Shown here in pieces: positions 30,820 to 63,363 of a DNA stretch of 64,000 nt. Source of the DNA: Escherichia phage vB_EcoM_ESCO25; sequence record OM386656.1; one strand, written 5' to 3'. The stretch's first letter is position 1. Each line of letters begins with the position of its first letter. Position numbers and translations under genes: made by a program. The notes under the pieces are model-generated. The model was not told the DNA's origin, ran no database searches, and saw nothing but the letters and a program-made list of their open reading frames with translations.

Positions 30820-30849
30820 TTGTTTTCTCCTCTTGTTTTGTATGAGTTG

Positions 30850-30877: not shown

Positions 30878-30880
30878 TAC

Positions 30881-30908: not shown

Positions 30909-30933
30909 ATATGAACATTAACAAGAGAGGTAG

Positions 30934-31227: not shown

Positions 31228-31239
31228 GAGGAGAACCAA

Positions 31240-31880: not shown

Positions 31881-31882
31881 AT

Positions 31883-48080: not shown

Positions 48081-48090
48081 GATTATACAA

Positions 48091-48112
48091 GGGGCGCACT
48101 AAGCGCCCTTTA
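48091..48112 (+). terminator. stem-loop/terminator, near-copy of the 42453 element
   Basis: GGGGCGCACTAAGCGCCC followed by TTTAACG (weak T-tract). Confidence 0.45.
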
Positions 48113-48640: not shown

Positions 48641-48655
48641 TCAACAACAAAACAA

Positions 48656-48682
48656 GGGGCGCACCAAGCGCCCTTTCTTTTT
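48656..48682 (+). terminator. intrinsic terminator (copy 2 of the repeated terminator)
   Basis: GGGGCGCACCAAGCGCCC followed by TTTCTTTTT. Confidence 0.65.
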
Positions 48683-50102: not shown

Positions 50103-50447
50103 ATGCAAGAGAGTAAAAATGTTCCGTTGAGTAGTTTACGTCTAATGAAGTTTTACAAAGCTTGGCTTGCTGGTGAGGTAGAAGGTCACACAACGAGTGG
50201 TTTGTGCATATGTTTGATTAAGTATGTAGAGGGAACATACCCTGATGAACTGTTACCTCGTCTACAACAAGAGATGAAATCACAGTTTATTGGTGCAGGA
50301 TTGGATTACAATTTCCCGTTTAATGAAGGTGGTTATGAGGAATACACCTTTGAACATAAAAAACATATTTGCCATAAAAACAAACATCGTATACAATGGG
50401 TGCTAGATAGAATTCAAGATTATGAAGGAGAGAAAGATGACAAATAG
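50103..50447 (+). CDS. paralog family A member 1 (GLC...WV-D-R small protein)
   Basis: 114 aa; FYKAWL...TSGLCICL...GLDYNFPF...RIQWVLDR; RBS gagaggag. Confidence 0.55.
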   Translation: MQESKNVPLSSLRLMKFYKAWLAGEVEGHTTSGLCICLIKYVEGTYPDELLPRLQQEMKSQFIGAGLDYNFPFNEGGYEEYTFEHKKHICHKNKHRIQWVLDRIQDYEGEKDDK

Positions 50448-50805
50448 TATTCCGTTGAGCAGTGCAACATTGCTTCGCTTCTATAAAGCATGGATTGCCA
50501 ACTATCCTGCAATGAATCGCACAACGAGTGGCTTATGTGGTTGTCTGGTAGATTATGTAGATGATTTTGTTGGTGATACACCTAGAGAAGAAGATAGAAA
50601 ATGGCGTGATCATTTGTTGGACCGTTTGAAATATGAAATGAGGAAACAATTTACATGTGCAGGGCTGGACTACAATCTTCCGTTCAATGTGGATTGCATG
50701 GATTACCTTTCAGAGTGTATAAACTTGGCGTGTCATACCAACACGTTACGTCTTCAGTGGGTGAAAGATCGGATTGAAGATGCAAATAATGCTTGCATTG
50801 AATAA
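50437..50805 (+). CDS. paralog family A member 2
   Basis: Start trimmed to MTNSIPLSS; FYKAWI...TSGLCGCL...GLDYNLPF...RLQWVKDR. Confidence 0.55.
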   Translation: MTNSIPLSSATLLRFYKAWIANYPAMNRTTSGLCGCLVDYVDDFVGDTPREEDRKWRDHLLDRLKYEMRKQFTCAGLDYNLPFNVDCMDYLSECINLACHTNTLRLQWVKDRIEDANNACIE

Positions 50806-50854
50806 AGATGTTTGTATAATGGATGACATAACAGATAGCCAATGAGGAGGTGAA

Positions 50855-51064
50855 ATGAAGAATTTGAAAACTGTCGCAATGTTCTTGACTGATCCTACAC
50901 GTGTGCAAGCACTGGCTAAAGCCAGCCGTGTAGCTGTAGAATTCCAAAACTTTAAGCCGTCCGTTGTGACAGGCAGTGAAACGTGTGTTATCGATTTCAT
51001 TAACGAATACTTCCGAGGGAATCCGGTTGGTCGTTACTTTATTAAGGGTCTGAAGGATGCATAA
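50855..51064 (+). CDS. hypothetical protein
   Basis: 69 aa ORF; RBS gaggagg. Confidence 0.5.
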   Translation: MKNLKTVAMFLTDPTRVQALAKASRVAVEFQNFKPSVVTGSETCVIDFINEYFRGNPVGRYFIKGLKDA

Positions 51065-51065
51065 C

Positions 51066-51287
51066 ATGAAACGCATGAAAATTCGTATTGAGAATGATGG
51101 TGGTTATAAAGGATTGGCACATGCAAAATTTCCACTTGTGTTGGAAGCTACTGTGGAATACAGTGGGCTTGCTCATGTGCGATTCTCGAAGATGATGGAA
51201 GTGCAGGAATGGTTTTGGGACGAGATAGATGCACGAGAAGGGGAAGATTATGTTTTCTTTCCTCACGAATATGAAATTGTCTATTAA
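51066..51287 (+). CDS. hypothetical protein, paralog of 56151..56372
   Basis: WFWDEIDAREGEDYVFFPHEYEIV versus WEWFEEDVWEGCDYVFFSDEVKVL. Confidence 0.5.
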   Translation: MKRMKIRIENDGGYKGLAHAKFPLVLEATVEYSGLAHVRFSKMMEVQEWFWDEIDAREGEDYVFFPHEYEIVY

Positions 51288-51299
51288 GGGTTGTGTGCA

Positions 51300-51539
51300 A
51301 TGATCACACCACAACAGAATGAAGCAGCAATGGATCTTCTCGATAGTTTGTATTTCGATAATTGGTACTCTGAATGTGAATGGATGAATATGCAAACTCT
51401 GAAAGAGAAGACAGAAGCGTTGATTACAGCAGATCAATTTCTTGCAGAGACGGAAAGAATGAATTATGATATGGCATCTCGCGCACGACGCGTTTCCATT
51501 TTCAATAAAATGTTAGCATTATGGGGAGGTAGAAAATGA
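51300..51539 (+). CDS. hypothetical protein
   Basis: ORF 51291..51539 with probable ATG at 51300. Confidence 0.45.
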   Translation: MITPQQNEAAMDLLDSLYFDNWYSECEWMNMQTLKEKTEALITADQFLAETERMNYDMASRARRVSIFNKMLALWGGRK

Positions 51540-51997
51540 GACAATTCACTATACTGGCAGCTTATGTGCAATGTGTTCACGATTATGTTAGTGCTCATAC
51601 AGGTTTGCTGGAAGTTACCAGTAAAATTGAAGGTAATATGGGTACTGTCTGTGTGCAACATACTTTATCCAATGTGCCGTTTAAAGTGTTCACTGTTGTA
51701 GCTGCCGATTACAATCGTGTAGATGTGCGTTTCTTGGATCATAATTTTCGTAACGCACTAGATAATATTGAAGATTATCTTCCCGTGAAACCTTTGTCAT
51801 TTCCACCAAGTCGTGCAAATAATGTAGTGACAAATCTTAATGAAAGAAATGTGGCTATGCACAAAAAAGTCCGTCAATTGAAAATGCTGATGGAAATGCA
51901 AGAAGAGATTGAAAAAGAGCTAAAAGAAGATTTTGGTATGCTTCCAAAAGACGCTTTGAAATGGTATGATGAACTAGGAGGAGAGAGCAATGTTTAA
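51536..51997 (+). CDS. hypothetical protein
   Basis: 153 aa ORF; ATGA overlap. Confidence 0.5.
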   Translation: MRQFTILAAYVQCVHDYVSAHTGLLEVTSKIEGNMGTVCVQHTLSNVPFKVFTVVAADYNRVDVRFLDHNFRNALDNIEDYLPVKPLSFPPSRANNVVTNLNERNVAMHKKVRQLKMLMEMQEEIEKELKEDFGMLPKDALKWYDELGGESNV

Positions 51998-52448
51998 AGA
52001 AGGTCATGTCTACCGTTTCCAGGATGAGGATTATATGCGACTATATTCTACCTTTGATAACAGTATTGCGGCTATCATTGGAGAGAATTTTTTCGAGGTG
52101 TTGAGCACTGATGCAAATGGTAATATCTTGTCAATGGTTGTAATAGGTATGAGAGATGGTATTATCACTGCTGGTGATGGGGATCGTTACATAATCAATT
52201 CTGCTCATATAGATTATTTTGTTGACGGCGGTGTTCGTGGTGGTCGTGGAAAACCCCAAGAAGAACCTGTTGATACAACAAAAGAAGAGTGGTATGTTGT
52301 AATGACTGGTGACACCTGTATTTCTGGATCTCAAAATTATGAAGAAGCTTTGAAAGAAGCAGCGGAGCATAAAATGGCTAATCCTACAGAAGAGGTTGAA
52401 GTTTATAAACGTTTGGTTGTTGCTACCATCGGCGTATCTTTTGTTTAA
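51990..52448 (+). CDS. MFK-family paralog 1
   Basis: 152 aa; N-terminal MFKEGHVYRFQDEDY shared with the next two genes. Confidence 0.5.
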   Translation: MFKEGHVYRFQDEDYMRLYSTFDNSIAAIIGENFFEVLSTDANGNILSMVVIGMRDGIITAGDGDRYIINSAHIDYFVDGGVRGGRGKPQEEPVDTTKEEWYVVMTGDTCISGSQNYEEALKEAAEHKMANPTEEVEVYKRLVVATIGVSFV

Positions 52449-52460
52449 AAGGAGAATGTT

Positions 52461-53246
52461 ATGTTTAAAGTAGGTTTTGTTTACAACTTCAAATCGGAAG
52501 ATACCAAAAACAATTTTGGTAAAGCTAGTATTCGTAATGCCTTTTTTGTAGGTTGCATCCAAGATAGTAAATTTAAAGTTTTGGATGTTGATTTTCTTGG
52601 TTCTGTATCCAAGGTGAAGGTATTAGACACAAATAAAATCATCGAAGGTGGTTCTGGGCTTTTCCCTGAAGGTTATAAGCTTGTAAGTTGTATGGATTAT
52701 ACTCGTTTTGAAGAACATACCCCTGAAGATTATGAAGATTCTCCTACAGGAGGCTGTGTCTTTGTAGAAGGTGGTGTCTATAAGTTTGCAAGTGAACAAG
52801 ATCGTAAGCTTTTCGCCAATTATATTGACGGAGGACAAACGACAAACAATGTAAACCGAAAAATTTCCGATCTTATTGGTGATGATCCTTTCGTGATCAC
52901 AAAGATGGTTGGACAAGATGTAACAGCAATCCGTAGGCTTGTATGTAATACAAATCATGTAGCAGGTGAAGGTTGGTTCAAGGAAGCTTGTGCGCTGCTA
53001 ATCAAAAGCGATAACCCTTATTTTAAAAATATTAAAGATGTTGTTGAGCCTAAACAAGAGGAATCCGCAGCGAATTTTAAACACTATGCTATTGTTAAAG
53101 GTATGAATGTCCAACTGGTGTCACATTCTTACGAAGAGATCGCCACAGAAGCAAAAAAGATGAAAGAAGAATACCCAATTTCTACTGTTGAGATCTATGA
53201 GCGTATTGGTGTTGTTAGTATTGAGCCTACTGCGGTAATAAAATAA
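52461..53246 (+). CDS. MFK-family paralog 2 (internally duplicated)
   Basis: 261 aa; MFKVGFVYNFKSEDTKNNF and an internal second copy VFVEGGVYKFASEQDRKLF. Confidence 0.5.
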   Translation: MFKVGFVYNFKSEDTKNNFGKASIRNAFFVGCIQDSKFKVLDVDFLGSVSKVKVLDTNKIIEGGSGLFPEGYKLVSCMDYTRFEEHTPEDYEDSPTGGCVFVEGGVYKFASEQDRKLFANYIDGGQTTNNVNRKISDLIGDDPFVITKMVGQDVTAIRRLVCNTNHVAGEGWFKEACALLIKSDNPYFKNIKDVVEPKQEESAANFKHYAIVKGMNVQLVSHSYEEIATEAKKMKEEYPISTVEIYERIGVVSIEPTAVIK

Positions 53247-53255
53247 GGAGCTATT

Positions 53256-53693
53256 ATGTTCAAAGCTAATGCTGTTTACTGTTTCAAAAGCAAAGCTGCA
53301 TGTGAAGCTTTCTCTACAATCTCTGATGAAAATTTCAAAATGGCAGCTTTGATTGAAGGGTCTTGTTTCCGCGTCGAAGATGTTAGTGAATCAGGATCTG
53401 TTTGCTCGTTGACTTTATTGGACAGCGGAGATATTATTGAAGCTGGACAGTATCCGTTCAGAAGTTGGGAGATATTGTTAGCTCGCGGAGAGCGTAACTT
53501 TTTTATGTGCGTGTCTGCGGGGGAAGTTGTGAAAGAAACTAAGGATGTTTCTGTTTACAATTCTGAATTTATAAGTTATAGTGAGTATCAACATCTGGAA
53601 GGCATTGTTGGTCACTTGTTATCTCTGATTGACATTGAATGTGACTTGCCTGAATCATTGAAAGAAGAGTTGAAAGCATTAGATCTGCTGTAA
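53256..53693 (+). CDS. MFK-family paralog 3
   Basis: 145 aa; MFKANAVYCFKSKAACEAF. Confidence 0.5.
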   Translation: MFKANAVYCFKSKAACEAFSTISDENFKMAALIEGSCFRVEDVSESGSVCSLTLLDSGDIIEAGQYPFRSWEILLARGERNFFMCVSAGEVVKETKDVSVYNSEFISYSEYQHLEGIVGHLLSLIDIECDLPESLKEELKALDLL

Positions 53694-53720
53694 TGTTCCG
53701 CACAACGAAAGGAGAATAAA

Positions 53721-54020
53721 ATGAATCTGACCGAACAGTTACGCCGTATTGCAAAAGAAGCTTCCTTCAACTTCCCTGTTGAAGAAGTGATCGAGACATG
53801 TTTTGCTGAAGCACGAGCGGGAAACTCTTCAAGAAATTTCACGCCATCTGATTTTGGTCTGGATAATTCCCCTACCCACCCAGGGGAGATCTACAATCAG
53901 GTGAAGTGGATGGATGAAGCAGTAGCAATTCTTCGTGAGCGTGGGCTTATTGTTTATAAAGAAATGGATCTGAACGGGGCATACGAGTGGATCACTATTG
54001 ATTGGTCGGAGGTGAAATAA
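53721..54020 (+). CDS. hypothetical protein
   Basis: 99 aa ORF; RBS aaggagaa. Confidence 0.5.
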   Translation: MNLTEQLRRIAKEASFNFPVEEVIETCFAEARAGNSSRNFTPSDFGLDNSPTHPGEIYNQVKWMDEAVAILRERGLIVYKEMDLNGAYEWITIDWSEVK

Positions 54021-54229
54021 TGGTTACTATCACATTGACAGTTACACAAGAGCAAGCAGAAGAATTACGTGATGCAGTGGCATACATGGGACGCTCTTAT
54101 TATATGCCTTATAAATCACAAGATGTTTTTGCTACAGCCATTGAGAAAGCTTTAAACAAATATCGAGAAACTCATGCCGTTCCTAAAGTATCAGCAGAAG
54201 AGTTTGGCACTTGGCACGAAGTTAACTAA
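54020..54229 (+). CDS. hypothetical small protein
   Basis: Start trimmed to MVTITLTV with RBS ggaggtg. Confidence 0.45.
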   Translation: MVTITLTVTQEQAEELRDAVAYMGRSYYMPYKSQDVFATAIEKALNKYRETHAVPKVSAEEFGTWHEVN

Positions 54230-54239
54230 GGAGGTATCG

Positions 54240-54473
54240 ATGAAAGGTAACAAGATGAAAGTTAATCAGGTACCGAGTGCATACACTTTGTGGCTTGCGC
54301 GAGCGTTACACCAGACGATCAAAAATCCTAAGAAGCCAATGAAGAGTGGGAAGAAGTTTATGTCTAAGGGCAAAACAACCTTTGGCTTCACTCGTATGTC
54401 TGTTAAGATGAAAAGGCTGGGGTATAAGCCAAACTACGCTCGTTACCCTTCTGAATACAACTGGTTTGACTAA
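54240..54473 (+). CDS. hypothetical small basic protein
   Basis: Start trimmed to MKGNKMKV with RBS aaggagg. Confidence 0.45.
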   Translation: MKGNKMKVNQVPSAYTLWLARALHQTIKNPKKPMKSGKKFMSKGKTTFGFTRMSVKMKRLGYKPNYARYPSEYNWFD

Positions 54474-54488
54474 AAAGGAGAACAAAAC

Positions 54489-54707
54489 ATGAAAACATCT
54501 ATTCGCGTGAAACATGATCCGAACAGCAGTTACCCATACGTGTATGTTGAACGTCATGAAGGGGACTATTACACCATAAAACGTAAAGTCCCAACTGATA
54601 CAGGGTTTAACTTTGATGTTATTGCGCTGGATGATCAAGGTGTTGATAATCTGGTGAATGCATTACTCGCATTGAAGGAAGTACGATATGAAAATCAGAC
54701 TAATTGA
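54489..54707 (+). CDS. hypothetical protein
   Basis: 72 aa ORF; RBS aaggaga. Confidence 0.5.
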   Translation: MKTSIRVKHDPNSSYPYVYVERHEGDYYTIKRKVPTDTGFNFDVIALDDQGVDNLVNALLALKEVRYENQTN

Positions 54708-54879
54708 AAAGGGTGATACCATCTTCGAAACCCGTAAAGGTGAAATCACAGAGGTTCCAGAAGAAAGATCAACAATTCTTGTCGATGGTGTTTTGAAATA
54801 TTGCTGTAGTGTCTATAAATCTTACGAGAAGGATCAGTATGGCGATCCAGAAATCTGGTTTGTAGGTGATGTGTATTAA
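54688..54879 (+). CDS. hypothetical small protein
   Basis: 63 aa ORF. Confidence 0.45.
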   Translation: MKIRLIEKGDTIFETRKGEITEVPEERSTILVDGVLKYCCSVYKSYEKDQYGDPEIWFVGDVY

Positions 54880-54888
54880 GGGGGTAAA

Positions 54889-55248
54889 ATGAGCGGAGAA
54901 TTTCGTAAAGTAAAAGATATCTCCCTCTTTGAGGGAGACGTTGTTCGGATCAATGGGAGATTGTTAAAATTTCACCAGTTGATGTATCCAAGTACATCTC
55001 GTAATGTGATGGTGATCTTCCAGGACGCTTTTGCTGCAAGCGATTACACTCCGTATTCAGCAGAAACTGAAGTATATTTTGAAGGATATGTTGATCGACC
55101 ACTTGCAAAAGAGATGTGGGACAAGTATCATATAAACATTACAGATTCACAGGGTGTCTTCTGGAACTACCCTAGTGAAGGTAAGATGGCTTTCGATTCT
55201 TGTGATCGTTTAGCCGAAGAGATTGCCGAATGGCGTGATACTCACTAA
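54889..55248 (+). CDS. hypothetical protein
   Basis: 119 aa ORF. Confidence 0.5.
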   Translation: MSGEFRKVKDISLFEGDVVRINGRLLKFHQLMYPSTSRNVMVIFQDAFAASDYTPYSAETEVYFEGYVDRPLAKEMWDKYHINITDSQGVFWNYPSEGKMAFDSCDRLAEEIAEWRDTH

Positions 55249-55263
55249 AACAGGAGAAAGATT

Positions 55264-55440
55264 ATGGCTACTTTTCAACAATTGAAAGATGTTTCACGTT
55301 TAGTAAGAAAAATCCGAGAAGCAGACGCTGCTGTGCGGAATGCATTAACGCCAGCAGAGCGTGAAGATCTTGAAGAGGAGGTGAAAACAGCCGAGAATGC
55401 TTTTGCTGTGTATCTTTCGACACTGCATACAGGAGGTTAA
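55264..55440 (+). CDS. hypothetical small protein (58 aa), not on ORF track
   Basis: MATFQQLKDVSRLVRKIREADAAVRNALTPAEREDLEEEVKTAENAFAVYLSTLHTGG; RBS caggaga. Confidence 0.4.
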   Translation: MATFQQLKDVSRLVRKIREADAAVRNALTPAEREDLEEEVKTAENAFAVYLSTLHTGG

Positions 55441-55755
55441 ATGTCAGAGGAACTTAAAGAATTTTATCAGGCATATCATAACTGGCTATTAGCTGGTGCT
55501 CCAGATAATAATCCTTTCTGGCATGATAAAGGATTATGTAGTTGCCTCTATCTTTGGTCTGGTGGTTATGATGACCTAAATTATGAAATGCAAATGCAAT
55601 TTCGAGAAGCAGGATTGTCTGAAGAATACCCGTTTGATGACGGAGACTGGTTTAAATATGATTTTGCACAAAGAAACGGGCTATTGCATTTGAATGCTGC
55701 CCGTATAAAATGGGTAAAAGATCATGCTACACAGGAGGATGTGCAATGCCAATAG
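55441..55755 (+). CDS. paralog family A member 3
   Basis: 104 aa; FYQAYHNWL...KGLCSCL...AGLSEEYPF...RIKWVKDH. Confidence 0.55.
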   Translation: MSEELKEFYQAYHNWLLAGAPDNNPFWHDKGLCSCLYLWSGGYDDLNYEMQMQFREAGLSEEYPFDDGDWFKYDFAQRNGLLHLNAARIKWVKDHATQEDVQCQ

Positions 55756-55946
55756 TGTTTAGTTTCTTGGTAATTGTTATGGTTGTTCTTTTCGCGGCAT
55801 GGCTTTGGGATTTTGACCCAGGAGCAGCGCAGCAAAGAGCTACAGACTGGAAAGAACAATGTATTGTGCTCAAACATGAACGAAATGCGGAGAAATTTCT
55901 TGACCTGGAGTGTGATCGCCTTGTAAGATACAAGCAAGACAAATAA
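55746..55946 (+). CDS. small membrane protein
   Basis: Start trimmed to MPIVFSFLVIVMVVLFAAWLW; RBS caggagga. Confidence 0.45.
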   Translation: MPIVFSFLVIVMVVLFAAWLWDFDPGAAQQRATDWKEQCIVLKHERNAEKFLDLECDRLVRYKQDK

Positions 55947-55960
55947 CCTTGAGGTGCAAA

Positions 55961-56149
55961 ATGGTAATTGAGATTAAACTTGAGTATGCTGGCGCTGTTG
56001 CTCTGATCGCACAAATGCTTGGAGCAAAGATTGAAGAAGTGTATATCAACGCTTGGAGCGTAGAGATTGATGTTCCTATGGACAACATTGCTAATCGCTT
56101 GCTGGTGGCAGAGTGTGAACGCACCAACATAATCTACAAAGGAGCATAA
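55961..56149 (+). CDS. hypothetical small protein
   Basis: Start trimmed to MVIEIKLEY. Confidence 0.45.
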   Translation: MVIEIKLEYAGAVALIAQMLGAKIEEVYINAWSVEIDVPMDNIANRLLVAECERTNIIYKGA

Positions 56150-56150
56150 T

Positions 56151-56372
56151 ATGAAAATTAGAGTTTGTGATGTATTGGGTTATGTTGGTTTTGAGAATGT
56201 TCAGATTCCTTTTGTTGTTGAAGCACATCTTGTTAGTGAGGATATGACAACATTCTTTGTTACGATAGAAGAAATGTCCAAAGTCGAGGGATGGGAGTGG
56301 TTTGAAGAAGATGTTTGGGAAGGTTGTGATTACGTATTCTTCTCTGACGAAGTGAAGGTTCTTGCGGAGTAG
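56151..56372 (+). CDS. hypothetical protein, paralog of 51066..51287
   Basis: 73 aa; see paralog motif above. Confidence 0.5.
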   Translation: MKIRVCDVLGYVGFENVQIPFVVEAHLVSEDMTTFFVTIEEMSKVEGWEWFEEDVWEGCDYVFFSDEVKVLAE

Positions 56373-56374
56373 GC

Positions 56375-56581
56375 ATGTCTTGTTTTACGAAAGCAGTGTC
56401 CATATGTAAGAAACAGTATGAAAGTGATTACGGAATATTTAATATTCCTGCGGATCATACAGAGTATTGTTCATGCGGTGGCAGAATGAAGAAAACAGTG
56501 ATTTATGCGGATAATGGAGATGAACTTGTTCCGGTTATTGTTTGCAAAGCTTGTCATTCTGTTAAAACATTAAAAGCGTAA
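56375..56581 (+). CDS. small Cys-containing protein
   Basis: 68 aa; CSCGG...CKAC. Confidence 0.45.
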   Translation: MSCFTKAVSICKKQYESDYGIFNIPADHTEYCSCGGRMKKTVIYADNGDELVPVIVCKACHSVKTLKA

Positions 56582-56676
56582 GGAGTCGGGACACCCGACG
56601 ATTGGAGCTAAAAATTTTGCGTACAACCCTTTCCGCCCAACAGGGGCGCGTCGGGTAAATAAAGAGGAGAGTTTAT

Positions 56677-57075
56677 ATGAAAAAGATCATTGTAGGTTTA
56701 TTGCTACTCGTTGCATCACTTGGAACAGCAAATGCGTCTCAAGTTTATGAGTGTGTGTCAGATGTGGTTGTTAAAAATCTGAAAGGTGAAGTGATTTCTG
56801 GTCCTAAGAAAATGGCTTCTGTTGTCATTAATAAAGATAACTCCTTTATCCTTAAAAATTCAGGTGGTGCTTTGATGAGTGGCATTCTGCAATACACAGG
56901 AGAAAAAAGTAAAGATGGTAGTGCTATGTACGGTTCACAACAATTTATTGGCACTACTGAAGTAGTAATGATGCGCACAGAGTATCGAGACACTTTGGCT
57001 TGGTTTGCATTTCTAAAAAATGATAAAACAATAACGAATGTTCTTACTCTAGAAGCTGATTGTACGCAACGATAA
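56677..57075 (+). CDS. secreted protein (signal peptide)
   Basis: MKKIIVGLLLLVASLGTANA signal peptide; RBS agaggaga. Confidence 0.55.
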   Translation: MKKIIVGLLLLVASLGTANASQVYECVSDVVVKNLKGEVISGPKKMASVVINKDNSFILKNSGGALMSGILQYTGEKSKDGSAMYGSQQFIGTTEVVMMRTEYRDTLAWFAFLKNDKTITNVLTLEADCTQR

Positions 57076-57084
57076 GGGGGATTT

Positions 57085-57531
57085 ATGACTAAAATGAGAC
57101 ATTACGCTGTAAACTGCAACGATGTTTGGCGTTTGTGTCCTGATGATCCGACAGAAGGCACATTTGTAAGATATGAGGATTATAAAGAGTTATCGGATGC
57201 TGTAGTCGCATTGTTAACAGATATCCGTTCACGTTATCCAGGACAAGATTTCACTTGCCCTCACATCAAACTTCTTGCCCTTCTGGTAGAAGGTGAGAAA
57301 GAAGTGGAAGATGGCTTCAAGCGTGTAGAGTATCAAGGTGAAACTTTAGAGGTTCCTGAATTTGTTAATTATATTGCAACAGATTCGAGTGGCGAGCGTT
57401 ATGGCTACAGCCATAAGCCAGAGATTCCTGATTGGATTCCCGCTTGGAGATATTCCGTTAGTACCGGAGACTATATCTTCCTTGGTGTAGGTAGTAGTAA
57501 GGATTGGCGTTTCTCTTTGACAGAGGTTTAA
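57085..57531 (+). CDS. hypothetical protein
   Basis: 148 aa ORF; RBS aaggggga. Confidence 0.5.
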   Translation: MTKMRHYAVNCNDVWRLCPDDPTEGTFVRYEDYKELSDAVVALLTDIRSRYPGQDFTCPHIKLLALLVEGEKEVEDGFKRVEYQGETLEVPEFVNYIATDSSGERYGYSHKPEIPDWIPAWRYSVSTGDYIFLGVGSSKDWRFSLTEV

Positions 57532-57535
57532 TAAT

Positions 57536-57799
57536 ATGAAAGAGACATTGCCAGCAGCATACCGTTTGAATGATGAACGTATTTGGGAGTGGACCGACGT
57601 TTCTTGTTTTTACCCTGAAATAGTTCAATATTGGCGAGCAAAAGGGTGTGTTGTAGTTATCAACCCTTGTGGACCAGTGGATGAAGATTGCTTGTATCTC
57701 GATGGAAAGTGGCACAGTTATTGTCGCTGGCCTTTTGAGTGGATGTGTAAAGAAGATCTCCCAGAGGGTTGGGAGTATCCAAAAGCAAATAGGAGATAA
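57536..57799 (+). CDS. hypothetical protein
   Basis: 87 aa ORF. Confidence 0.5.
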   Translation: MKETLPAAYRLNDERIWEWTDVSCFYPEIVQYWRAKGCVVVINPCGPVDEDCLYLDGKWHSYCRWPFEWMCKEDLPEGWEYPKANRR

Positions 57800-57800
57800 T

Positions 57801-58163
57801 ATGTCTAAAGATTTTGTTGAAGTGTTTGTCAAAGATGAAGAAACTGGTTTAGGCACGGGTTTCATTTGTGAAGAAACTTTTAAACGTGAACAAGAAAAAG
57901 CTATCCTTATGCGAAACTATGATCATGCATTAGAACAATGGAAAAATGCAGAACAAAAATGCAAAAACCTTTATGCAGAAAATAGAAAACTACAAGATCA
58001 AATGGAGTTGTTAGCTATCAGTTTACGATCTCTCATTTTGGCTGTAGAAGACGGTTTTAAAAATCCAGATGGTTTTCCTGTGAGCGATATTGAACATGAT
58101 TTGTATCTTGCTCGTGGTGCTTACTTTTATGTTAAACAGAAGTCTGTAGAAGGAGAGAAGTGA
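57801..58163 (+). CDS. hypothetical protein
   Basis: Start trimmed to MSKDFVEVFV with RBS ataggaga. Confidence 0.5.
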   Translation: MSKDFVEVFVKDEETGLGTGFICEETFKREQEKAILMRNYDHALEQWKNAEQKCKNLYAENRKLQDQMELLAISLRSLILAVEDGFKNPDGFPVSDIEHDLYLARGAYFYVKQKSVEGEK

Positions 58164-58360
58164 TGGAAGAAAAACTGGAACGTATTATCGAGTTAGCCAT
58201 GTCTATTGGCTACGACGATTGTTTTCTCCAAACTATTGGAGAAACACAGAACGATTACGACTCTTGGGTGAAAGAGTTGGAAGAACTCAAAACTTCCTTG
58301 ATTGCTGACTTTGCTGAAGCCGAGGATAAAGCAGATCGTTACAACTATCTGTGTCGATAA
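58160..58360 (+). CDS. hypothetical small protein
   Basis: 66 aa ORF; ATGA overlap. Confidence 0.45.
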   Translation: MMEEKLERIIELAMSIGYDDCFLQTIGETQNDYDSWVKELEELKTSLIADFAEAEDKADRYNYLCR

Positions 58361-58422
58361 GCCTTGACATTTATTTTATGTATGGTATACATACATTATC
58401 AACGTGAGCAAGGTGGTGTAAT

Positions 58423-58695
58423 ATGAATAAAGATCGGTTTCTTTCTTTAGTCGCGGAAGCTCCTTTTGATGTTCTTGGGGTGAGATTATGGAAAGACAGA
58501 AACTATGGGTTAGATGTTCAAACATATTCTCTTTGGTTGGTTGGGGAGCACAGCTTAGATGAAAGCTTGTGCATGGGTAGGGATTCTCGTTCCCTTTGTT
58601 TAAAGTTCAGAAGCTTAGAACGCGCAAACAAAGAGCAAGAAAAACTAACGAGGTGGCTAAATGAAAACAAGCACAGGGTTGATGGAGTTTTATAA
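58423..58695 (+). CDS. hypothetical protein
   Basis: 90 aa ORF; candidate promoter TTGACA at 58374 upstream. Confidence 0.5.
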   Translation: MNKDRFLSLVAEAPFDVLGVRLWKDRNYGLDVQTYSLWLVGEHSLDESLCMGRDSRSLCLKFRSLERANKEQEKLTRWLNENKHRVDGVL

Positions 58696-58987
58696 AATTT
58701 ATCTAGCATGGATTGATGTTGGTGCTCCTGATGGTAAACCTTTTCGGCGGGATTGTGGTTTGTGTGCCAACTTGTTCGATTATGTGCACAGAGGTAATTA
58801 CAACCCCATTATAACAACCTTGTCAGATGAAATGCACGCACAGTTTTACCATAAAGGGTTGAATCAAGGACTCCCTTTCAATGAGAACTACGATGCATAT
58901 GTCTTAGAGTCAGATGCAGATGCCTGTCACCTGAACGTGGACAGAATTAATTGGGTAAGAGATCGTATTGCAGAGGAGGATGAATAA
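58661..58987 (+). CDS. paralog family A member 4
   Basis: 108 aa; FYKIYLAWI...CGLCANL...KGLNQGLPF...RINWVRDR. Confidence 0.55.
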   Translation: MKTSTGLMEFYKIYLAWIDVGAPDGKPFRRDCGLCANLFDYVHRGNYNPIITTLSDEMHAQFYHKGLNQGLPFNENYDAYVLESDADACHLNVDRINWVRDRIAEEDE

Positions 58988-59214
58988 TGTCGGATTATAA
59001 CTGGTATGAACTTGAAGCTGTTTGTCAGTTTTATGATTCAATAGTTCTACGTGATCCAATCTGTCAAGAATTGAGTCGCCGTGCAAGTGCATTGGCAATC
59101 CGTGTTAAAATAAATGGTTGGAACCCAGACTTGGAAAAAGAGTTGGAATTTCTCTTAGAAACAACACGTGTCTTCCACAAAGTGTTCCCTGAATGGTTCG
59201 AGATGGAAGAATGA
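58987..59214 (+). CDS. hypothetical protein
   Basis: 75 aa ORF. Confidence 0.5.
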   Translation: MSDYNWYELEAVCQFYDSIVLRDPICQELSRRASALAIRVKINGWNPDLEKELEFLLETTRVFHKVFPEWFEMEE

Positions 59215-59432
59215 TCATGTGGATTGTACGTCTTAAATATGATGGCCCTGATCCTTGGGTGCATAACGTTTGCGGTTGTGATTCCGAAGAAGCAGCACAT
59301 AAAGCAGGAAGAGCAGCAAGTGCCTTCTATAATGACAAACCTTTTTGTTTAGAAATGGCAGGTGTGGTTTGTATGAGCATGTTCGAATACTACTCTTATG
59401 AAATCAAAGAACACCAAGGGGAATGGAAATAA
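59211..59432 (+). CDS. hypothetical small Cys-containing protein
   Basis: Start trimmed to MIMWIVRLKY. Confidence 0.4.
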   Translation: MIMWIVRLKYDGPDPWVHNVCGCDSEEAAHKAGRAASAFYNDKPFCLEMAGVVCMSMFEYYSYEIKEHQGEWK

Positions 59433-59494
59433 ATCGTTGACAGAAGGATCTGTCTTTGTCATAATCATCTCATCGAAACAAAGAGGAGAAAATC

Positions 59495-60049
59495 ATGAAA
59501 AAGTTTATTTGCACCCGTTCCACTAACAGTGATATCCTTGTAGGTAAGGTTATCAAAGGAGAACTCTTCCATGCAAACGGTAAGAAATATATTCTGCTGA
59601 AAGATTCTTTCAACGGGGAATATCCGCGCTGCACTTTCTTCAATTACAACACTCCATTTGCTTTAGAAGGAGATGCTTGGGACTGGGCTGAACTTCATCC
59701 TTTCTGTGAAGATGGACAGACAGAAGAGCAGGAAGAATCTACGGGAAGTTTACGTGATAAACTGCGTAATAAAGCACTGCAAGCAAATTCCCATTTTACT
59801 GAAATGGTAGACGCCGTTCTATTAGAGATTGAAGATTGTGCGGAACAAGGGAAGTTTGAAAAATACTTTGAACCTTCCAGTTTTGGTTTGTGCAATAACC
59901 CTTCTTCTTATGAACAGATAAGTGAACAGAAAAGAGGGGCAAATGTTGTAGCTACAATGCTACGTGCAAAAGGTTTGGATGTAACATTGGCAACCGCAGA
60001 GCACAGTATTTTTGGGATTATCAAACACATCATTATTAGTTGGAACTAA
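59495..60049 (+). CDS. hypothetical protein
   Basis: 184 aa ORF; candidate promoter (ttgaca at 59447) and RBS agaggaga upstream. Confidence 0.5.
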   Translation: MKKFICTRSTNSDILVGKVIKGELFHANGKKYILLKDSFNGEYPRCTFFNYNTPFALEGDAWDWAELHPFCEDGQTEEQEESTGSLRDKLRNKALQANSHFTEMVDAVLLEIEDCAEQGKFEKYFEPSSFGLCNNPSSYEQISEQKRGANVVATMLRAKGLDVTLATAEHSIFGIIKHIIISWN

Positions 60050-60060
60050 AGGAGATAGAT

Positions 60061-60360
60061 ATGCAAGTTGAAGACCTGATCAAAATTTTGAATAAAGCAA
60101 AAGAAAAAGGTGCTATCAAGGACTGGAAACGTGAAACAAGTGAAGACCTATCTCACTGTTGCCGAGAATTTTACATCGAAGGTATTGCTGACGATCATTA
60201 TATTATCGAATGGTATATCAACTTAATGACTCTTAAGCACGGTTCGTTTGAGGTTTGGTTTGATGACATTGATGTAAATGGTTTTCATCCTGGCTATAAA
60301 ATCGCTATGCAGTTATCTTATCGTAGAGAAGTTGTAGCACATTTGGGTTTACATAACTAA
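60061..60360 (+). CDS. hypothetical protein
   Basis: Start trimmed to MQVEDLIKIL with RBS aaggaga. Confidence 0.5.
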   Translation: MQVEDLIKILNKAKEKGAIKDWKRETSEDLSHCCREFYIEGIADDHYIIEWYINLMTLKHGSFEVWFDDIDVNGFHPGYKIAMQLSYRREVVAHLGLHN

Positions 60361-60370
60361 GGAGAAAAGA

Positions 60371-60694
60371 ATGCAAGCAGTTGTTAACGAAGCTATTATG
60401 AACTTATCCTTTTTGTTAGCTGGTTTAGGAGGTGTTCTCATAGGTTTGGCTCTTATCTGGTGTATTCGTCGATTAATCGGGTACCGACAAAAAGGTGTTT
60501 CATGTTTTGTATCTTACAATTTTACAACTGCTTACAGCAATGAGGTTGGATCTGGCAATGCTCAAGCATTTTTACCAACATATCCTCCTACGGTGGAAGA
60601 TATTCGAAACTTGGAAGTAGAACTTATGGGACTAAGTGATAACTATACATCTCTAGTTATTCAAAATATTTTTCGACTAAAACAGGAGGCGTGA
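60371..60694 (+). CDS. membrane-anchored protein
   Basis: 107 aa; N-terminal helix LSFLLAGLGGVLIGLALIWCI. Confidence 0.5.
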   Translation: MQAVVNEAIMNLSFLLAGLGGVLIGLALIWCIRRLIGYRQKGVSCFVSYNFTTAYSNEVGSGNAQAFLPTYPPTVEDIRNLEVELMGLSDNYTSLVIQNIFRLKQEA

Positions 60695-60907
60695 ATGAAG
60701 GTACATTACCCTCATCCCTTTGATCCTAAAAACAAAGCCGTAATTCTTCGTCAGTGGCAACGGGTTTGTCGTACTAAATGTCCAATCAATAGCCCACACA
60801 ATGTAGACAAGGACTATCTTGGGACATTTGTTGAATACACTTACATAGACAAAAACAAGCGTAAACAACATGTCGAGGAATACTGCTTAAGAGTAGAATG
60901 GCTGTAA
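60695..60907 (+). CDS. hypothetical small protein
   Basis: 70 aa ORF. Confidence 0.45.
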   Translation: MKVHYPHPFDPKNKAVILRQWQRVCRTKCPINSPHNVDKDYLGTFVEYTYIDKNKRKQHVEEYCLRVEWL

Positions 60908-60977
60908 ATAATAAATACCTTGACAAGTGTTTATTCGTTTTGTAAAGTGAGGATACAGCAATGGTTTAGGAGTGGTT

Positions 60978-61649
60978 ATGAAAAAGTTTGTTGTTTACAG
61001 TCGTCTTTCTAAACAGAAAAAAGGTGAGGCACAATATGGTATGGAGAGCCAAGAGAATGATATCCGTTACTTCTTAGACTCTGTGCCTGATGCGGAAGTT
61101 ATTGGTCAATTTTCTGAATACTATTCGGGTAAGGGCGATTGGAAGCAACGTAAGGAACTGGTTAAAGCGGTTGAAATGTGTAAAGCTACCGGAGCAACTT
61201 TATTGGTAGCTAAAGTTGACCGCTTGGGTCGTAACAACGCCTCCGTAGCAACTCTTCTAGAAATGATTGATGTTAAGATAGCCATCATGCCAGACGCAGA
61301 TAAAATGGTTATACAGCTTCTGTCTGTTCTGGCTGAACAAGAAGTTAGAGGTATTGCTGATCGTATTAAAAAGGGTCTTGCTGTAGCAAAAAGCAAAGGT
61401 GTTTTATTAGGCAGTGCTAATCCTAAAACTGCCGCTGCACGTAGAAAAGGAAAAATGGAATACAATTCTGTTAAAGCAGACGCTTTTGCAGAGACATTTC
61501 GTGAACGCTTGGAGATCCTTAGAGATTTAAATACACCTTACAAAACTATTGCTGAAAAATTCAATAGTAAGAAAATAGCAACAGCACGTGGTGGTAAATG
61601 GGATGCTAAAACTGTTTCTCGTTTGTGTGCCAGACTGAACATTAAATAG
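60978..61649 (+). CDS. small serine recombinase (resolvase/invertase family)
   Basis: Start trimmed to MKKFVVYSRLSKQKKGEAQYGMESQ (catalytic-Ser region), LLVAKVDRLGRN, C-terminal HTH-like region; own promoter (ttgacaagtg...) at about 60921. Confidence 0.65.
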   Translation: MKKFVVYSRLSKQKKGEAQYGMESQENDIRYFLDSVPDAEVIGQFSEYYSGKGDWKQRKELVKAVEMCKATGATLLVAKVDRLGRNNASVATLLEMIDVKIAIMPDADKMVIQLLSVLAEQEVRGIADRIKKGLAVAKSKGVLLGSANPKTAAARRKGKMEYNSVKADAFAETFRERLEILRDLNTPYKTIAEKFNSKKIATARGGKWDAKTVSRLCARLNIK

Positions 61650-61657
61650 GAGAGGAT

Positions 61658-62068
61658 ATGAAACAAGAAAATGAATCTGTAGATCACTTAATCATGCTGT
61701 CAGCCCTTTTTGCCGGATGGGAGGTATTTTTTGAAAATTTGTTCAATTCTGCTACAGATGGTTCTGATTTTATGCGCCAATTTAAACGACGAACTGTTGA
61801 GGACTATACTTTCTATTCAGGTCGGATTGAAAAAGGTTACGAAGATATAGATACAATACTTACAATTAAAGTTTTAGATGTGATGTTTAGTGTTATAGAT
61901 GCTATCGATGAAAGTCTTCCGATTTTAGAAGATTGCAATACGAAAGCTTATGTTTACAAAATAGCCCGTGCTTATGTGTCTGCAAACAGTTGTCTTCTTT
62001 CCACCCAAATTGCGGTGAACAATCTTGCCAACTTGTTCGATGAAGGAGAAACTTTTTATGACAATTGA
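61658..62068 (+). CDS. hypothetical protein
   Basis: 136 aa ORF; RBS aggagagga. Confidence 0.5.
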   Translation: MKQENESVDHLIMLSALFAGWEVFFENLFNSATDGSDFMRQFKRRTVEDYTFYSGRIEKGYEDIDTILTIKVLDVMFSVIDAIDESLPILEDCNTKAYVYKIARAYVSANSCLLSTQIAVNNLANLFDEGETFYDN

Positions 62069-62423
62069 TTTGAAGTGTAAGAGGATTCTTTTAGATTTCT
62101 ATAATAATTGGTTAGAACACCTCCGTCTCTTTCCACGAGAAAGTGGTTACGCTGATGTTGGCTTATGCCGAGGTCTACGTATGTATATAAGTGATGAATT
62201 TCGAGCCGATCATTCTTTAGCATATTCTGTTTATGGTATGCAATTAGCCAGTTTTGAAAATGCTGGTTTAGATACAACTTTCCCGTTTAACACAGCAAAA
62301 TCTTTTGAGCAAGAGTGTAAGGAAAAACGTTGCATGTTTAATGAAAAACGTGTACAGTGGGTTAAGGATCGAGTTAAACAACTGGAACAAGAGTTGGATT
62401 TCTTCTATGATGAGGCAGAATAA
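62058..62423 (+). CDS. paralog family A member 5
   Basis: Start trimmed to MTIDLKCKRILLDFYNNWL; ...VGLCRGL...AGLDTTFPF...RVQWVKDR. Confidence 0.55.
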   Translation: MTIDLKCKRILLDFYNNWLEHLRLFPRESGYADVGLCRGLRMYISDEFRADHSLAYSVYGMQLASFENAGLDTTFPFNTAKSFEQECKEKRCMFNEKRVQWVKDRVKQLEQELDFFYDEAE

Positions 62424-62695
62424 TGGATAGACAAACCTTAAAAACAATGGCAGATGCCACTAATTCCCCGTACTTTGAAAAAGTAAGTAAATTGGTAGCT
62501 CAAGCCGCAGAGGAAGGATATTATAACATAAACATCCACAACCCAAGTCTTATACTAGAAATGCCAAGTGATAAGAAGATACAAGAGAGTATCTGTGAAG
62601 GTATTGTTAGTTACTGGCGCGAGCGTGGGTGTGGTGCAAACATGGCTTTAGACAGTGCAAACATTGTAAGATATATAAATATTTCTTGGGGGTGA
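62423..62695 (+). CDS. hypothetical protein
   Basis: 90 aa ORF. Confidence 0.5.
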   Translation: MDRQTLKTMADATNSPYFEKVSKLVAQAAEEGYYNINIHNPSLILEMPSDKKIQESICEGIVSYWRERGCGANMALDSANIVRYINISWG

Positions 62696-62700
62696 TTTTT

Positions 62701-63312
62701 ATGATCCAATGCACTCATATCCAAATTACTTGGAGAGATGAACTTTACCATTTAGGACAATTTACTGTAGGGGAAACATACCCTGTCATTAAACATAATC
62801 CTAACATCGCAAACTTTGACAGGATGGTTCTTGTTGAGGACGATCTAGGTCAAACTTATTCTTTAGATCTAAAATATCCGTTTTCTTACGGCTACGATTG
62901 GATCGTTACTTTTGAAGACGTGGAGGAAAATAAAGCAATGAACGAAAAAAATTCTTGGTATTATCGTTGTGAACTGCCGCCAGTAGGTGAAAAGGTTATC
63001 TTTGTTCCTGATTTGGAAAGATATTCTTGGGACAGTTCTTATTCTGTTCCTAAAGAAGGCACCGAAGTTGAAGTTATTGCACATCGCACAACTTCGCATG
63101 GTAACGATGTAGCAGTTGTTTTCTGGGATGATGAAGGCGCTGCTTGTGCAGGTGGCTTTGTTGCAGGTAATTTTGAACCCCTGCCAGATCCTTTGAAGGA
63201 GGCAATTTTAGGCGTAGCTTCTTTTGGACTCTCTTACACATCTGCACAAGAGATCGTAGAAGGTATTTTAAACGGTACCGTTCCAAACGAAATTTTTAAA
63301 CAGATTAAATAA
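62701..63312 (+). CDS. hypothetical protein
   Basis: Start trimmed to MIQCTHIQITW. Confidence 0.5.
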   Translation: MIQCTHIQITWRDELYHLGQFTVGETYPVIKHNPNIANFDRMVLVEDDLGQTYSLDLKYPFSYGYDWIVTFEDVEENKAMNEKNSWYYRCELPPVGEKVIFVPDLERYSWDSSYSVPKEGTEVEVIAHRTTSHGNDVAVVFWDDEGAACAGGFVAGNFEPLPDPLKEAILGVASFGLSYTSAQEIVEGILNGTVPNEIFKQIK

Positions 63313-63363
63313 TAGTTGCACCCCGTTCTGCGGGGTGTTATTGTATACGTAAAGGAGGCGCTA

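What the first reader, a model, noticed from the sequence alone, without database searches (positions are those of the whole stretch)
51990..53693. Tandem triplet of MFK-family paralogs, the middle one internally duplicated
Three consecutive genes begin MFK-x-G/N-x-VY-x-F (51990, 52461, 53256); the 261-aa middle gene contains a second internal copy of the N-terminal motif (VFVEGGVYKFASEQDRKLF), indicating domain duplication followed by tandem gene duplication.
Basis: seen in the sequence. Interest (0 to 1): 0.4.

Follow-up and report, generated by a model that had tools for sequence, protein, structure and literature searches.

The report
Tandem GoF-like phage early genes
Three neighbouring genes of a phAPEC8-like E. 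coli phage are diverged copies of the phage T4 GoF "mRNA metabolism modulator" family, and the middle one carries two copies of the family's small beta-barrel domain; this extends a recently described family but is not a new kind of system.

Summary
Genes A (51990-52448), B (52461-53246) and C (53256-53693) share an ~87-aa N-terminal domain. B has two copies: an HMM built only from outside homologs scores residues 1-86 at E=2e-16 and 101-192 at E=7e-14. The window is a Phapecoctavirus (98% identical to phAPEC8_ev052). The domain is the N-terminal barrel of T4 GoF: a family HMM built without T4 proteins hits GoF residues 5-91 at E=1.6e-13. That family (GoF/MotB.1/Frd.2, "LSm-like fold") was described for Tevenvirinae in 2025. 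AlphaFold2 models B (pLDDT 86) as barrel-linker-barrel-linker-ββαβ module; A has one barrel plus that module, and C has a different tail. B's second barrel plus tail is collinear with all of A, its first barrel is closest to C's, and an AGGAGG sits 4 nt before the second barrel, so gene fusion after tandem duplication is more likely. Near-identical phages carry ABC, AC, BC or an A::B chimera, with crossovers at the MFK start or in the linker. A T4-like contig has five adjacent family genes with 12 barrels. Function is inferred only: non-essential early host-takeover factors, possibly acting on RNA metabolism. Interest is low to moderate.

The parts
51990..52448 (+). Gene A, 152 aa, pI 4.5. GoF-type N-terminal barrel (res 1-80, nt 51990-52229), Gly/Arg/Pro/Glu-rich linker (res 81-95), and C-terminal ββαβ 'VEIY' module (res 96-152, nt 52275-52445). 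The start overlaps the stop of the upstream gene by 8 nt.
   Evidence: ORF. Outside-only N-domain HMM i-E 1.6e-12. Ct-module HMM i-E 5e-17. phrog_3710 E=2.5e-34. The ortholog in LR597654 is annotated 'goF mRNA metabolism modulator of RB69'. pI.
52461..53246 (+). Gene B, 261 aa, pI 5.4. Barrel 1 (res 1-90, nt 52461-52730), linker (res 91-99), barrel 2 (res 100-195, nt 52758-53045), linker (res 196-202), and the ββαβ 'VEIY' module (res 203-261, nt 53067-53243).
   Evidence: Two domains found by the outside-only HMM, 1-86 (1.8e-16) and 101-192 (6.5e-14). AF2 mean pLDDT 85.9, with low-confidence linkers at 93-97 and 200-202. Ct HMM 6.5e-11. T4 GoF vs B 2-95 BLASTP E=1e-7.
52748..52753 (+). AGGAGG inside the B1-B2 linker coding sequence, 4 nt upstream of codon V100 (GTC), which aligns with the ATG of gene A. 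Candidate relic ribosome-binding site of a formerly separate gene. No in-frame start codon follows it.
   Evidence: Sequence. Of 13 AGGAGG in 50103-64000, 9 precede true starts and 4 are internal. The chance that an internal one falls in this ~8-nt slot is about 0.002. The feature is not general in other multi-barrel genes.
53256..53693 (+). Gene C, 145 aa, pI 4.4. GoF-type barrel (res 1-87, nt 53256-53516) plus a different, acidic C-terminal region (res 88-145) that lacks the VEIY module.
   Evidence: Outside-only HMM i-E 1.9e-23. phrog_22975 E=7e-99. No Ct-module hit. The tail is shared with P0018 and the L005 C-like gene. The ortholog is annotated 'RNA metabolism moderator of RB51'.
51976..51981 (+). 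Shine-Dalgarno AGGAGG of gene A, 8 nt before the ATG. Equivalent AGGAG motifs precede B (52450-52454) and C (53246-53250).
52257..52267 (+). Linker microhomology CAAGAAGAACC in A. Its partner CAAGAGGAATCC lies at 53055-53066 in B. This is the crossover site of the phAPEC8 A::B chimera, which lacks about 798 bp relative to the window.
   Evidence: phAPEC8_0024 is A 1-~90 joined to the B tail, with the tail identical to B. Nucleotide junction. The chimera is found only in phAPEC8.
52461..52469 (+). ATGTTTAAA (MFK) start of B. Its partner ATGTTCAAA lies at 53256-53264 at the start of C. This is the crossover site that removes exactly one 795-bp gene unit (B) in phage ESCO5.
   Evidence: ESCO5 has A followed directly by C. 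The junction carries B's RBS and ATGTTTAAA followed by C's body.
51536..51997 (+). Upstream neighbour, 153 aa, overlapping gene A by 8 nt. It is not a family member. Its 153-aa, syntenic counterpart in phi92 (gp001; orthology not tested here) is annotated 'predicted transcription-repair coupling factor fold'.

Best explanation
SHOWN: The window comes from a phAPEC8-like E. coli myovirus (Phapecoctavirus, Stephanstirmvirinae). Genes A, B and C are closely packed on one strand, 2-3.5 kb from where several relatives' genome records begin, and lie in a block of small genes. They encode modular, acidic proteins of the T4 GoF family. Each starts with an ~87-aa small beta-barrel (five strands with a helical hairpin between strands 1 and 2; SH3-like/'LSm-like') that is homologous to the GoF N-terminal domain. 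A flexible linker and a small C-terminal module follow. That module is a ββαβ 'VEIY' unit in A and B and a different acidic tail in C. B carries two barrels in tandem. The locus recombines at module boundaries: close relatives carry ABC, AC, BC or an A-barrel::B-tail chimera. INFERRED: B most likely arose by fusion of two adjacent paralogous genes, not by an internal duplication that came before the gene duplication. By analogy with GoF (an abundant, non-essential early protein; its D25Y mutant stabilises T4 gene 41 mRNA post-transcriptionally and suppresses the growth defect on rho mutants), A, B and C are most likely dispensable early host-takeover factors. The barrel would dock onto a host or phage macromolecule of the RNA synthesis/decay machinery. 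Given the net negative charge, that partner is more probably a protein than naked RNA. The C-terminal module would supply a second contact or dimerisation, and the two-barrel protein would act as a bivalent version. The low identity between paralogs and the presence/absence polymorphism suggest the copies have different targets and are tuned to different hosts.
For: Genome identity: 98.3% over 2.6 kb to phAPEC8_ev052. Homology among A, B and C, and the two barrels in B. GoF membership: BLASTP of T4 GoF vs B1 gives E=8e-8; a family HMM built without any T4 protein hits GoF 5-91 at i-E 1.6e-13 and Frd.2 4-87 at 0.0017; there are weak hits to three 'goF mRNA metabolism modulator' PHROGs; orthologs of A and C are already annotated goF-like. 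Structure: AF2 pLDDT 85.9 with three domains and low-confidence linkers, and both barrels have the order E-H-H-E-E-E-H-E. The Ct module alone reaches pLDDT 90.6 as ββαβ. BFVD gives 64 hits at E<=1e-3, almost all uncharacterised proteins of T4-like phages. The weak PDB neighbours are all SH3-like (FeoA, Fyn SH3, tandem SH3-like KIN17 and Mib repeats, IdeR), the same neighbourhood reported for GoF in PMC12152347. Modularity and recombination. Fusion origin: A is collinear with B 100-254, B1 is closest to C, and the AGGAGG relic is in place. GoF biology: PMC12152347. Acidic pI of 4.4-5.4. Recurrent tandem multi-barrel arrays: B-like followed by C-like in L005, and 12 barrels in 5 adjacent genes in L012.
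Against: No function is known even for wild-type GoF. WT GoF and MotB.1 had no clear effect in the reporter assay, and only the D25Y gain-of-function mutant did. The Asp25 and Gly84 suppressor positions are not conserved in A, B or C. No PDB structural match is significant (best E=0.035), so 'LSm-like' rather than generic SH3-like cannot be decided. The proteins are acidic, which argues against direct RNA binding. Early expression is inferred from position and analogy only; the promoter scan was uninformative (36 sites found, 31.5 expected). The relic-RBS argument rests on one site and does not generalise.
Confidence: 0.6

Rival explanations
1. The proteins belong to the GoF family by descent, but the barrels are SH3-like protein-protein interaction modules with no connection to RNA. 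For example, they could be inhibitors or decoys of host proteins or of anti-phage defence components. The paralog diversity and cassette polymorphism would then reflect an arms race.
Against: The only functional data for any family member (GoF D25Y, suppression on rho mutants) concern mRNA levels. No defence-related profile match was found. No partner has been identified.
Confidence: 0.3
2. One reading: an internal duplication of the N-domain within one ancestral gene came first, followed by tandem duplication of the gene and loss of one barrel in A and C.
For: The two-barrel architecture is old. P0014 is only 29% identical to B yet has the same barrel-barrel-VEIY layout. Multi-barrel genes without any SD-like relic are common in L012. 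All barrel copies are roughly equidistant at 21-32% identity, so the order is not resolved.
Against: B1 is closer to C's barrel than to B2, and B2 plus the tail is collinear with A. AGGAGG sits at the B1/B2 junction. Observed recombination events join modules of different paralogs. This history also needs two independent barrel losses.
Confidence: 0.25
3. The similarity is a chance or compositional artefact of short AT-rich ORFs that begin with MFK, and the ORFs are not real related genes.
For: Direct comparison of B's two halves is not significant (z=1.2). There are no Pfam or NCBIfam matches.
Against: z-scores of 8-16 with 0 of 300 shuffles reaching the observed score. Independent HMM E-values down to 1e-23. 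Confident AF2 models. Conserved homologs at 20-40% identity in other phages. Canonical RBSs.
Confidence: 0.01

Closest known systems
Phage T4 GoF (ComC-alpha; 'mRNA metabolism modulator'), NP_049624, and the GoF/MotB.1/Frd.2 'LSm-like fold' family of Tevenvirinae (Kim et al. 2025, PMC12152347)
   Same: The ~87-aa N-terminal barrel is homologous (profile E=1.6e-13 to GoF 5-91; BLASTP E=8e-8). The overall design is the same: N-terminal barrel, flexible acidic linker, small variable C-terminal domain. Both are acidic proteins of 140-150 aa encoded among small accessory genes of large E. coli myoviruses, with several paralogs per genome.
   Different: The host phage is a Stephanstirmvirinae (Phapecoctavirus), not a Tevenvirinae. 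[quoted passage not shown] B carries two barrels in one polypeptide. A and B carry a conserved ββαβ 'VEIY' C-terminal module that did not align with GoF's tail. The GoF suppressor residues D25 and G84 are not conserved. MotB.1 is not detectable by sequence from this side.
PHROG families phrog_3710, phrog_622 and phrog_22975 (unknown function) and phrog_2980, phrog_13003 and phrog_8944 ('goF mRNA metabolism modulator')
   Same: A and B match phrog_3710 over their full length, and C matches phrog_22975. These are the existing database clusters for these proteins.
   Different: The PHROGs carry no functional or architectural description. Neither the split of B into two barrels plus a tail nor the link between the 'unknown' and 'goF' PHROGs is recorded there.
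FeoA / SH3-like small beta-barrels, and tandem SH3-like proteins (KIN17 C-terminal tandem, Mind bomb Mib repeats)
   Same: Weak structural resemblance of each barrel to FeoA and Fyn SH3 (TM normalised to the target of about 0.5), and of the two-barrel unit to tandem SH3-like domains.
   Different: None of the matches is statistically significant (E>=0.035), and sequence identity is 5-16%. The window barrels have a helical hairpin inserted between strands 1 and 2. The comparison is a fold analogy, not family membership.
Hfq / Sm-LSm RNA chaperones
   Same: A five-stranded bent antiparallel sheet, which is the analogy drawn for GoF by Kim et al..
   Different: No Hfq or Sm hit appeared in the top 50 Foldseek PDB matches. 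There is no N-terminal Sm helix and no evidence of ring oligomers. The proteins are acidic rather than basic.

Membership tests
GoF/MotB.1/Frd.2 family (Kim et al. 2025) | Sequence homology of the N-terminal domain to the GoF NTD (residues ~1-91) | tested here: met
   BLASTP of T4 GoF vs B1 gives E=8e-8, and vs C gives 0.002-0.005. An HMM of window plus outside barrels, without T4 proteins, hits GoF 5-91 at i-E 1.6e-13 and Frd.2 4-87 at 0.0017; MotB.1 is not significant.
GoF/MotB.1/Frd.2 family (Kim et al. 2025) | NTD predicted as a bent five-stranded antiparallel beta-sheet (LSm-like/SH3-like) | tested here: met
   In the AF2 model of B, both barrels have five strands (E7-10, 38-43, 49-54, 59-62, 83-86 and E106-109, 144-150, 153-159, 165-167, 188-190) at pLDDT above 90. 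Weak PDB neighbours are FeoA and SH3, as reported for GoF. Whether it is specifically LSm-like rather than SH3-like is unresolved.
GoF/MotB.1/Frd.2 family (Kim et al. 2025) | NTD joined by a flexible linker to a variable C-terminal domain | tested here: met
   Low-pLDDT linkers at B 93-97 and 200-202. A and B share one tail module and C has another. The natural A::B chimera joins within the linker.
GoF/MotB.1/Frd.2 family (Kim et al. 2025) | Encoded by Tevenvirinae (T4-like) phages | tested here: not met
   The window is a Phapecoctavirus, subfamily Stephanstirmvirinae. phi92 (Justusliebigvirus) also has one member. This widens the family's range and does not exclude membership.
GoF/MotB.1/Frd.2 family (Kim et al. 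2025) | Early, abundant, non-essential protein | not testable with these tools
   Only positional inference is available. The genes lie in a block of small same-strand genes that starts 2-3.5 kb from where several relatives' records begin and about 1 kb from the phi92 left terminal repeat. Dispensability is supported by natural loss of A (ukendt) or B (ESCO5 and most relatives).
GoF/MotB.1/Frd.2 family (Kim et al. 2025) | Effect on mRNA level or stability (shown only for GoF D25Y) | not testable with these tools
   The D25 and G84 equivalents are not conserved: A has a gap and D, B1 has A and T, B2 has T and P, and C has I and N.
Hfq/Sm-LSm superfamily | Sm1/Sm2 motifs, an N-terminal helix followed by five strands, and ring oligomerisation | tested here: not met
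   No Pfam LSM or Hfq hit at E<=1. No Hfq or Sm structure appears among the top 50 Foldseek PDB matches. The helices lie between strands 1 and 2, not N-terminal. Oligomerisation was not tested.
FeoA (PF04023) / SH3-like | Significant sequence or structural match to FeoA | tested here: not met
   No Pfam hit. Foldseek E values are 1.3-5.5 for FeoA chains.

The most novel reading that the evidence does not exclude
GoF-type barrels form a large, fast-recombining 'Lego' family of early host-takeover proteins in big enterobacterial myoviruses, well beyond Tevenvirinae. Barrels and tails are shuffled at fixed module boundaries (the MFK start and the acidic linker) to generate one-, two- and three-barrel proteins. 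Multi-barrel forms such as B would act as multivalent adaptors that bridge two components of the host RNA synthesis/decay machinery (for example Rho, the degradosome or nascent RNA). The ABC, AC, BC and chimera polymorphism would then determine performance on particular E. coli hosts.
Probability: 0.15. Interest if true: 0.55.

Novelty: new member of a known kind. Interest (0 to 1): 0.3.

Why it matters
GoF has been a puzzle since the 1970s-90s: its mutants suppress T4's growth defect on rho mutants, yet the wild-type function is still unknown. This locus shows that the GoF barrel is not confined to T4-like phages. It also occurs in tandem gene arrays and in multi-barrel polypeptides, and it pairs with a conserved, previously undescribed ββαβ tail module. 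Nature has already made the domain swaps and deletions (ABC, AC, BC and A::B chimera in ~98%-identical phages), and these isolates could be compared directly for host range or mRNA effects. That gives a cheap experimental handle on the family. The locus is otherwise an ordinary example of paralog expansion in phage early regions.

Tried and rejected
- Pfam, NCBIfam and PADLOC scans of A, B and C gave nothing usable. The only hit, GajA at E=0.038 on 24 residues of C, was dismissed as noise.
- Sequence searches against PDB chains with the family profile and with C found nothing.
- Foldseek against the PDB, with full-length B and with the isolated Ct module, gave no significant match (best E=0.035 and 1.1). 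The PII-like and RuBisCO small-subunit resemblance of the Ct module was rejected as generic ββαβ similarity.
- The word-indexed protein search returned only close orthologs. When GoF was included in the query it was swamped by T4-like GoF proteins.
- I tested whether A, B or C naturally carry an aromatic residue at the GoF D25Y position. By eye B2 and A seemed to, but hmmalign placed other residues or a gap there, so the idea was dropped.
- I tested whether relic RBS motifs mark all internal barrel starts. Only B does so convincingly, L005 less so, and 7 junctions in L012 show none, so the point is kept as suggestive only.
- The sigma-70 promoter and terminator scan of the region was uninformative (36 found, 31.5 expected).
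- MotB.1 could not be linked by sequence.
- About 38 kb of the genome (the structural-gene region) was not scanned for further copies.
Full report
**What is there**

The window is from a phAPEC8-like E. coli myovirus. The 2.6 kb around the finding is 98.3% identical to Escherichia phage phAPEC8_ev052 (Phapecoctavirus, Stephanstirmvirinae) and 96-99% identical to many other Phapecoctavirus genomes.

Each is preceded by an AGGAG(G) Shine-Dalgarno motif 7-8 nt upstream. A overlaps the stop of the upstream gene by 8 nt, and the B and C spacers are 12 and 9 nt. The genes sit in a block of small + strand genes that starts at 50103. This follows about 1.4 kb of AT-rich non-coding DNA and two copies of a GC-rich hairpin terminator. 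Several relatives' genome records begin within window 48.6-50.1 kb, and in phi92 the single homolog is about 1 kb from the left terminal repeat.

**Is the similarity real**

Yes. Local alignment scores for A-B, A-C and B-C are 9-16 standard deviations above shuffled controls, and 0 of 300 shuffles reached the observed score. BLASTP gives B-C 40.6% identity over 64 aa (E=3e-9), A-C E=9e-5 and A-B(1-66) E=6e-4.

B's two halves compared directly are not significant (z=1.2), and A's N-domain against B 99-190 alone gives E about 0.1. Three independent lines establish it:
- The whole of A aligns collinearly with B 100-254 (E=1e-5).
- phrog_3710 matches B in two stretches, the best-scoring one covering residues 98-260.
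- An HMM built only from eleven outside single-domain homologs plus T4 GoF, with no window sequence in it, finds two complete domains in B, at 1-86 (i-E 1.8e-16) and 101-192 (i-E 6.5e-14). The same HMM finds one domain each in A (1.6e-12) and C (1.9e-23).

No other ORF in the window or in another 49 kb of a near-identical genome has it.

**Anatomy**

AlphaFold2 with a 29-sequence family alignment models B with mean pLDDT 85.9. It has three compact domains (1-90, 100-195 and 205-250) separated by low-confidence linkers at 93-97 and 200-202. Both N-domains have the same element order, strand-helix-helix-strand-strand-strand-helix-strand. That describes a five-stranded small barrel with a helical hairpin between strands 1 and 2.

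The C-terminal module modelled alone reaches pLDDT 90.6 and is ββαβ. An HMM of this 'VEIY' module from outside homologs hits A (5e-17) and B (6.5e-11) but not C. C's tail is a different, acidic region shared with C-type orthologs (P0018 and the L005 C-like gene).

The architecture is therefore:
- A = barrel + VEIY
- B = barrel + barrel + VEIY
- C = barrel + other tail

All three are acidic, with pI 4.5, 5.4 and 4.4.

**What family**

Pfam and NCBIfam have no model for these proteins. PHROGs place A and B in phrog_3710 and C in phrog_22975 (both unknown function), with weaker hits to three PHROGs labelled 'goF mRNA metabolism modulator'. In LR597654 the orthologs of A and C are already annotated as goF-like.

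I tested this directly. T4 GoF (NP_049624) aligns with B 2-96 at BLASTP E=8e-8 and with C at 0.002-0.005. A family HMM built without any T4 protein hits GoF residues 5-91 end to end at i-E 1.6e-13, hits Frd.2 4-87 marginally at 0.0017, and does not hit MotB.1.

An exhaustive profile search of 1.84 billion representative proteins found only 21 at E<=1e-3, so by sequence this branch is small. It includes two-barrel proteins (P0014, P0019, P0024) and three-barrel proteins (P0016, P0021).

**How the arrangement arose and how it behaves**

The four barrel copies are 21-32% identical to each other in the family alignment, and only C-type orthologs reach 38-40%. The duplications are therefore old.

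The two-barrel layout is also old. P0014 is 29% identical to B, has the same barrel-barrel-VEIY layout, and is followed directly by a C-like gene on a metagenomic phage contig.

- B2 plus the tail is collinear with A.
- B1 is closest to C's barrel.
- A perfect AGGAGG (52748-52753) lies 4 nt before the codon that aligns with A's ATG. Of the 13 AGGAGG in this 13.9-kb block, 9 are real RBSs and 4 are internal. The chance of an internal one falling in that slot is about 0.002.

This suggests fusion of an upstream barrel to the RBS and body of a downstream A-like gene. The relic is not general: the L005 homolog has AAGGAG-N6-GTG a little further upstream, and seven junctions in other multi-barrel genes have none. 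I therefore treat fusion as likely but unproven.

Present-day relatives show that recombination happens at exactly these boundaries:
- phAPEC8 itself has only two genes. phAPEC8_0024 is A's barrel and linker joined to B's VEIY module, with the crossover in an 11-12-nt linker microhomology, CAAGA(A/G)GAA(C/T)CC. This chimera is unique to phAPEC8.
- ESCO5 has A followed directly by C. The crossover lies inside the shared RBS/ATGTT(T/C)AAA start, and exactly one 795-bp unit is missing.
- ukendt has an unrelated 64-aa ORF in place of A.
- Full-length B occurs in only 16 phage records, whereas at least 56 carry A.

On a T4-like 71-kb contig (SegE and NrdD are neighbours), five adjacent genes carry 2, 2, 3, 3 and 2 barrels. 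Tandem arrays of multi-barrel genes are therefore a recurrent feature of the family, and the window holds a small example.

**Function**

Nothing here tests function directly. GoF is an abundant (about 20,000 molecules per cell), non-essential T4 early protein that runs as monomer and dimer. Its D25Y mutant suppresses T4's growth defect on rho mutants and stabilises gene 41 mRNA post-transcriptionally, while wild-type GoF and MotB.1 show little effect. The D25 and G84 positions are variable surface sites and are not conserved in A, B or C.

My best reading is that A, B and C are dispensable early host-takeover factors. Their barrels would dock on a component of the host RNA synthesis/decay machinery, and given the negative charge that partner is more likely a protein than naked RNA. 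The tail would add a second contact or dimerisation, and B would be a bivalent version. I put about 0.9 on family membership, about 0.35-0.4 on an RNA-metabolism role, and about 0.3 on the rival that they are SH3-like protein-binding modules aimed at unrelated host targets.

**Verdict**

This is a cluster of new members of a known, recently described family. Its modest novelties are occurrence outside Tevenvirinae, tandem genes, a two-barrel protein, a conserved VEIY tail, and natural module-swap variants. Interest is 0.3.

Noticed in passing
window 50103-50447, 50422-50805, 55441-55755, 58661-58987, 62040-62423, 63364-63702 (+): A six-member paralog family of ~105-127-aa proteins (25-39% identity; motif FYKAWLAG...TSGLC.CL...AGLDYNFPF...RIQWVKDRI) is dispersed through the same small-gene block. 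The three members scanned had no Pfam match. It is a larger expansion than the GoF-like triplet.
   Followed up: partly
window 51057-51287 and 56151-56372 (+); 53721-54020 vs the C-terminal half of 59495-60049 (+): Two further small paralog pairs lie in the same block (37% and 31% identity). None has a significant Pfam match.
   Followed up: partly
window 4391-5335, 5343-5624 and 5548-6330 (-): Adjacent paralogs on the minus strand (43% and 39% identity). The 314-aa one has a borderline glycosyltransferase match (PF13524, E=1.7e-5, just at the cut-off). The layout may be a duplicated or split glycosyltransferase gene.
   Followed up: partly
window 48087-48111 and 48652-48676: Two 96%-identical copies of a GC-rich hairpin (ACAAGGGGCGCAC(T/C)AAGCGCCCTTT) each follow a gene. 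About 1.4 kb of AT-rich DNA without long ORFs (48.7-50.1 kb) comes next, and several relatives' genome records start there. This is probably the terminator and genome-end/early-promoter region.
   Followed up: partly
window 51536-51997 (+): This 153-aa gene overlaps the start of A by 8 nt. It has no Pfam hit. Its 153-aa, syntenic counterpart in phi92 (gp001; orthology not tested) was annotated by its depositors as 'predicted transcription-repair coupling factor fold', which could be another small-barrel protein next to the GoF-like cluster.
   Followed up: no
L005:3098-3874 (metagenomic B-like gene), linker around codons 82-88: AAGGAG followed 6 nt later by an in-frame GTG, five codons before the second barrel. 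This could be a relic RBS or a functional internal start producing a one-barrel isoform.
   Followed up: partly
L012:920-6569 (Logan SRR14300940_297, 71-kb T4-like contig): Five adjacent GoF-family genes (259, 250, 354, 354 and 269 aa) carry 12 barrel domains in total, with non-family 125- and 143-aa genes interspersed. A SegE-like GIY-YIG endonuclease and NrdD lie next to the array.
   Followed up: partly
window ~30000-32000: GC skew changes sign from negative to positive at about 30-32 kb, marking a switch in the predominant coding strand within the window.
   Followed up: no
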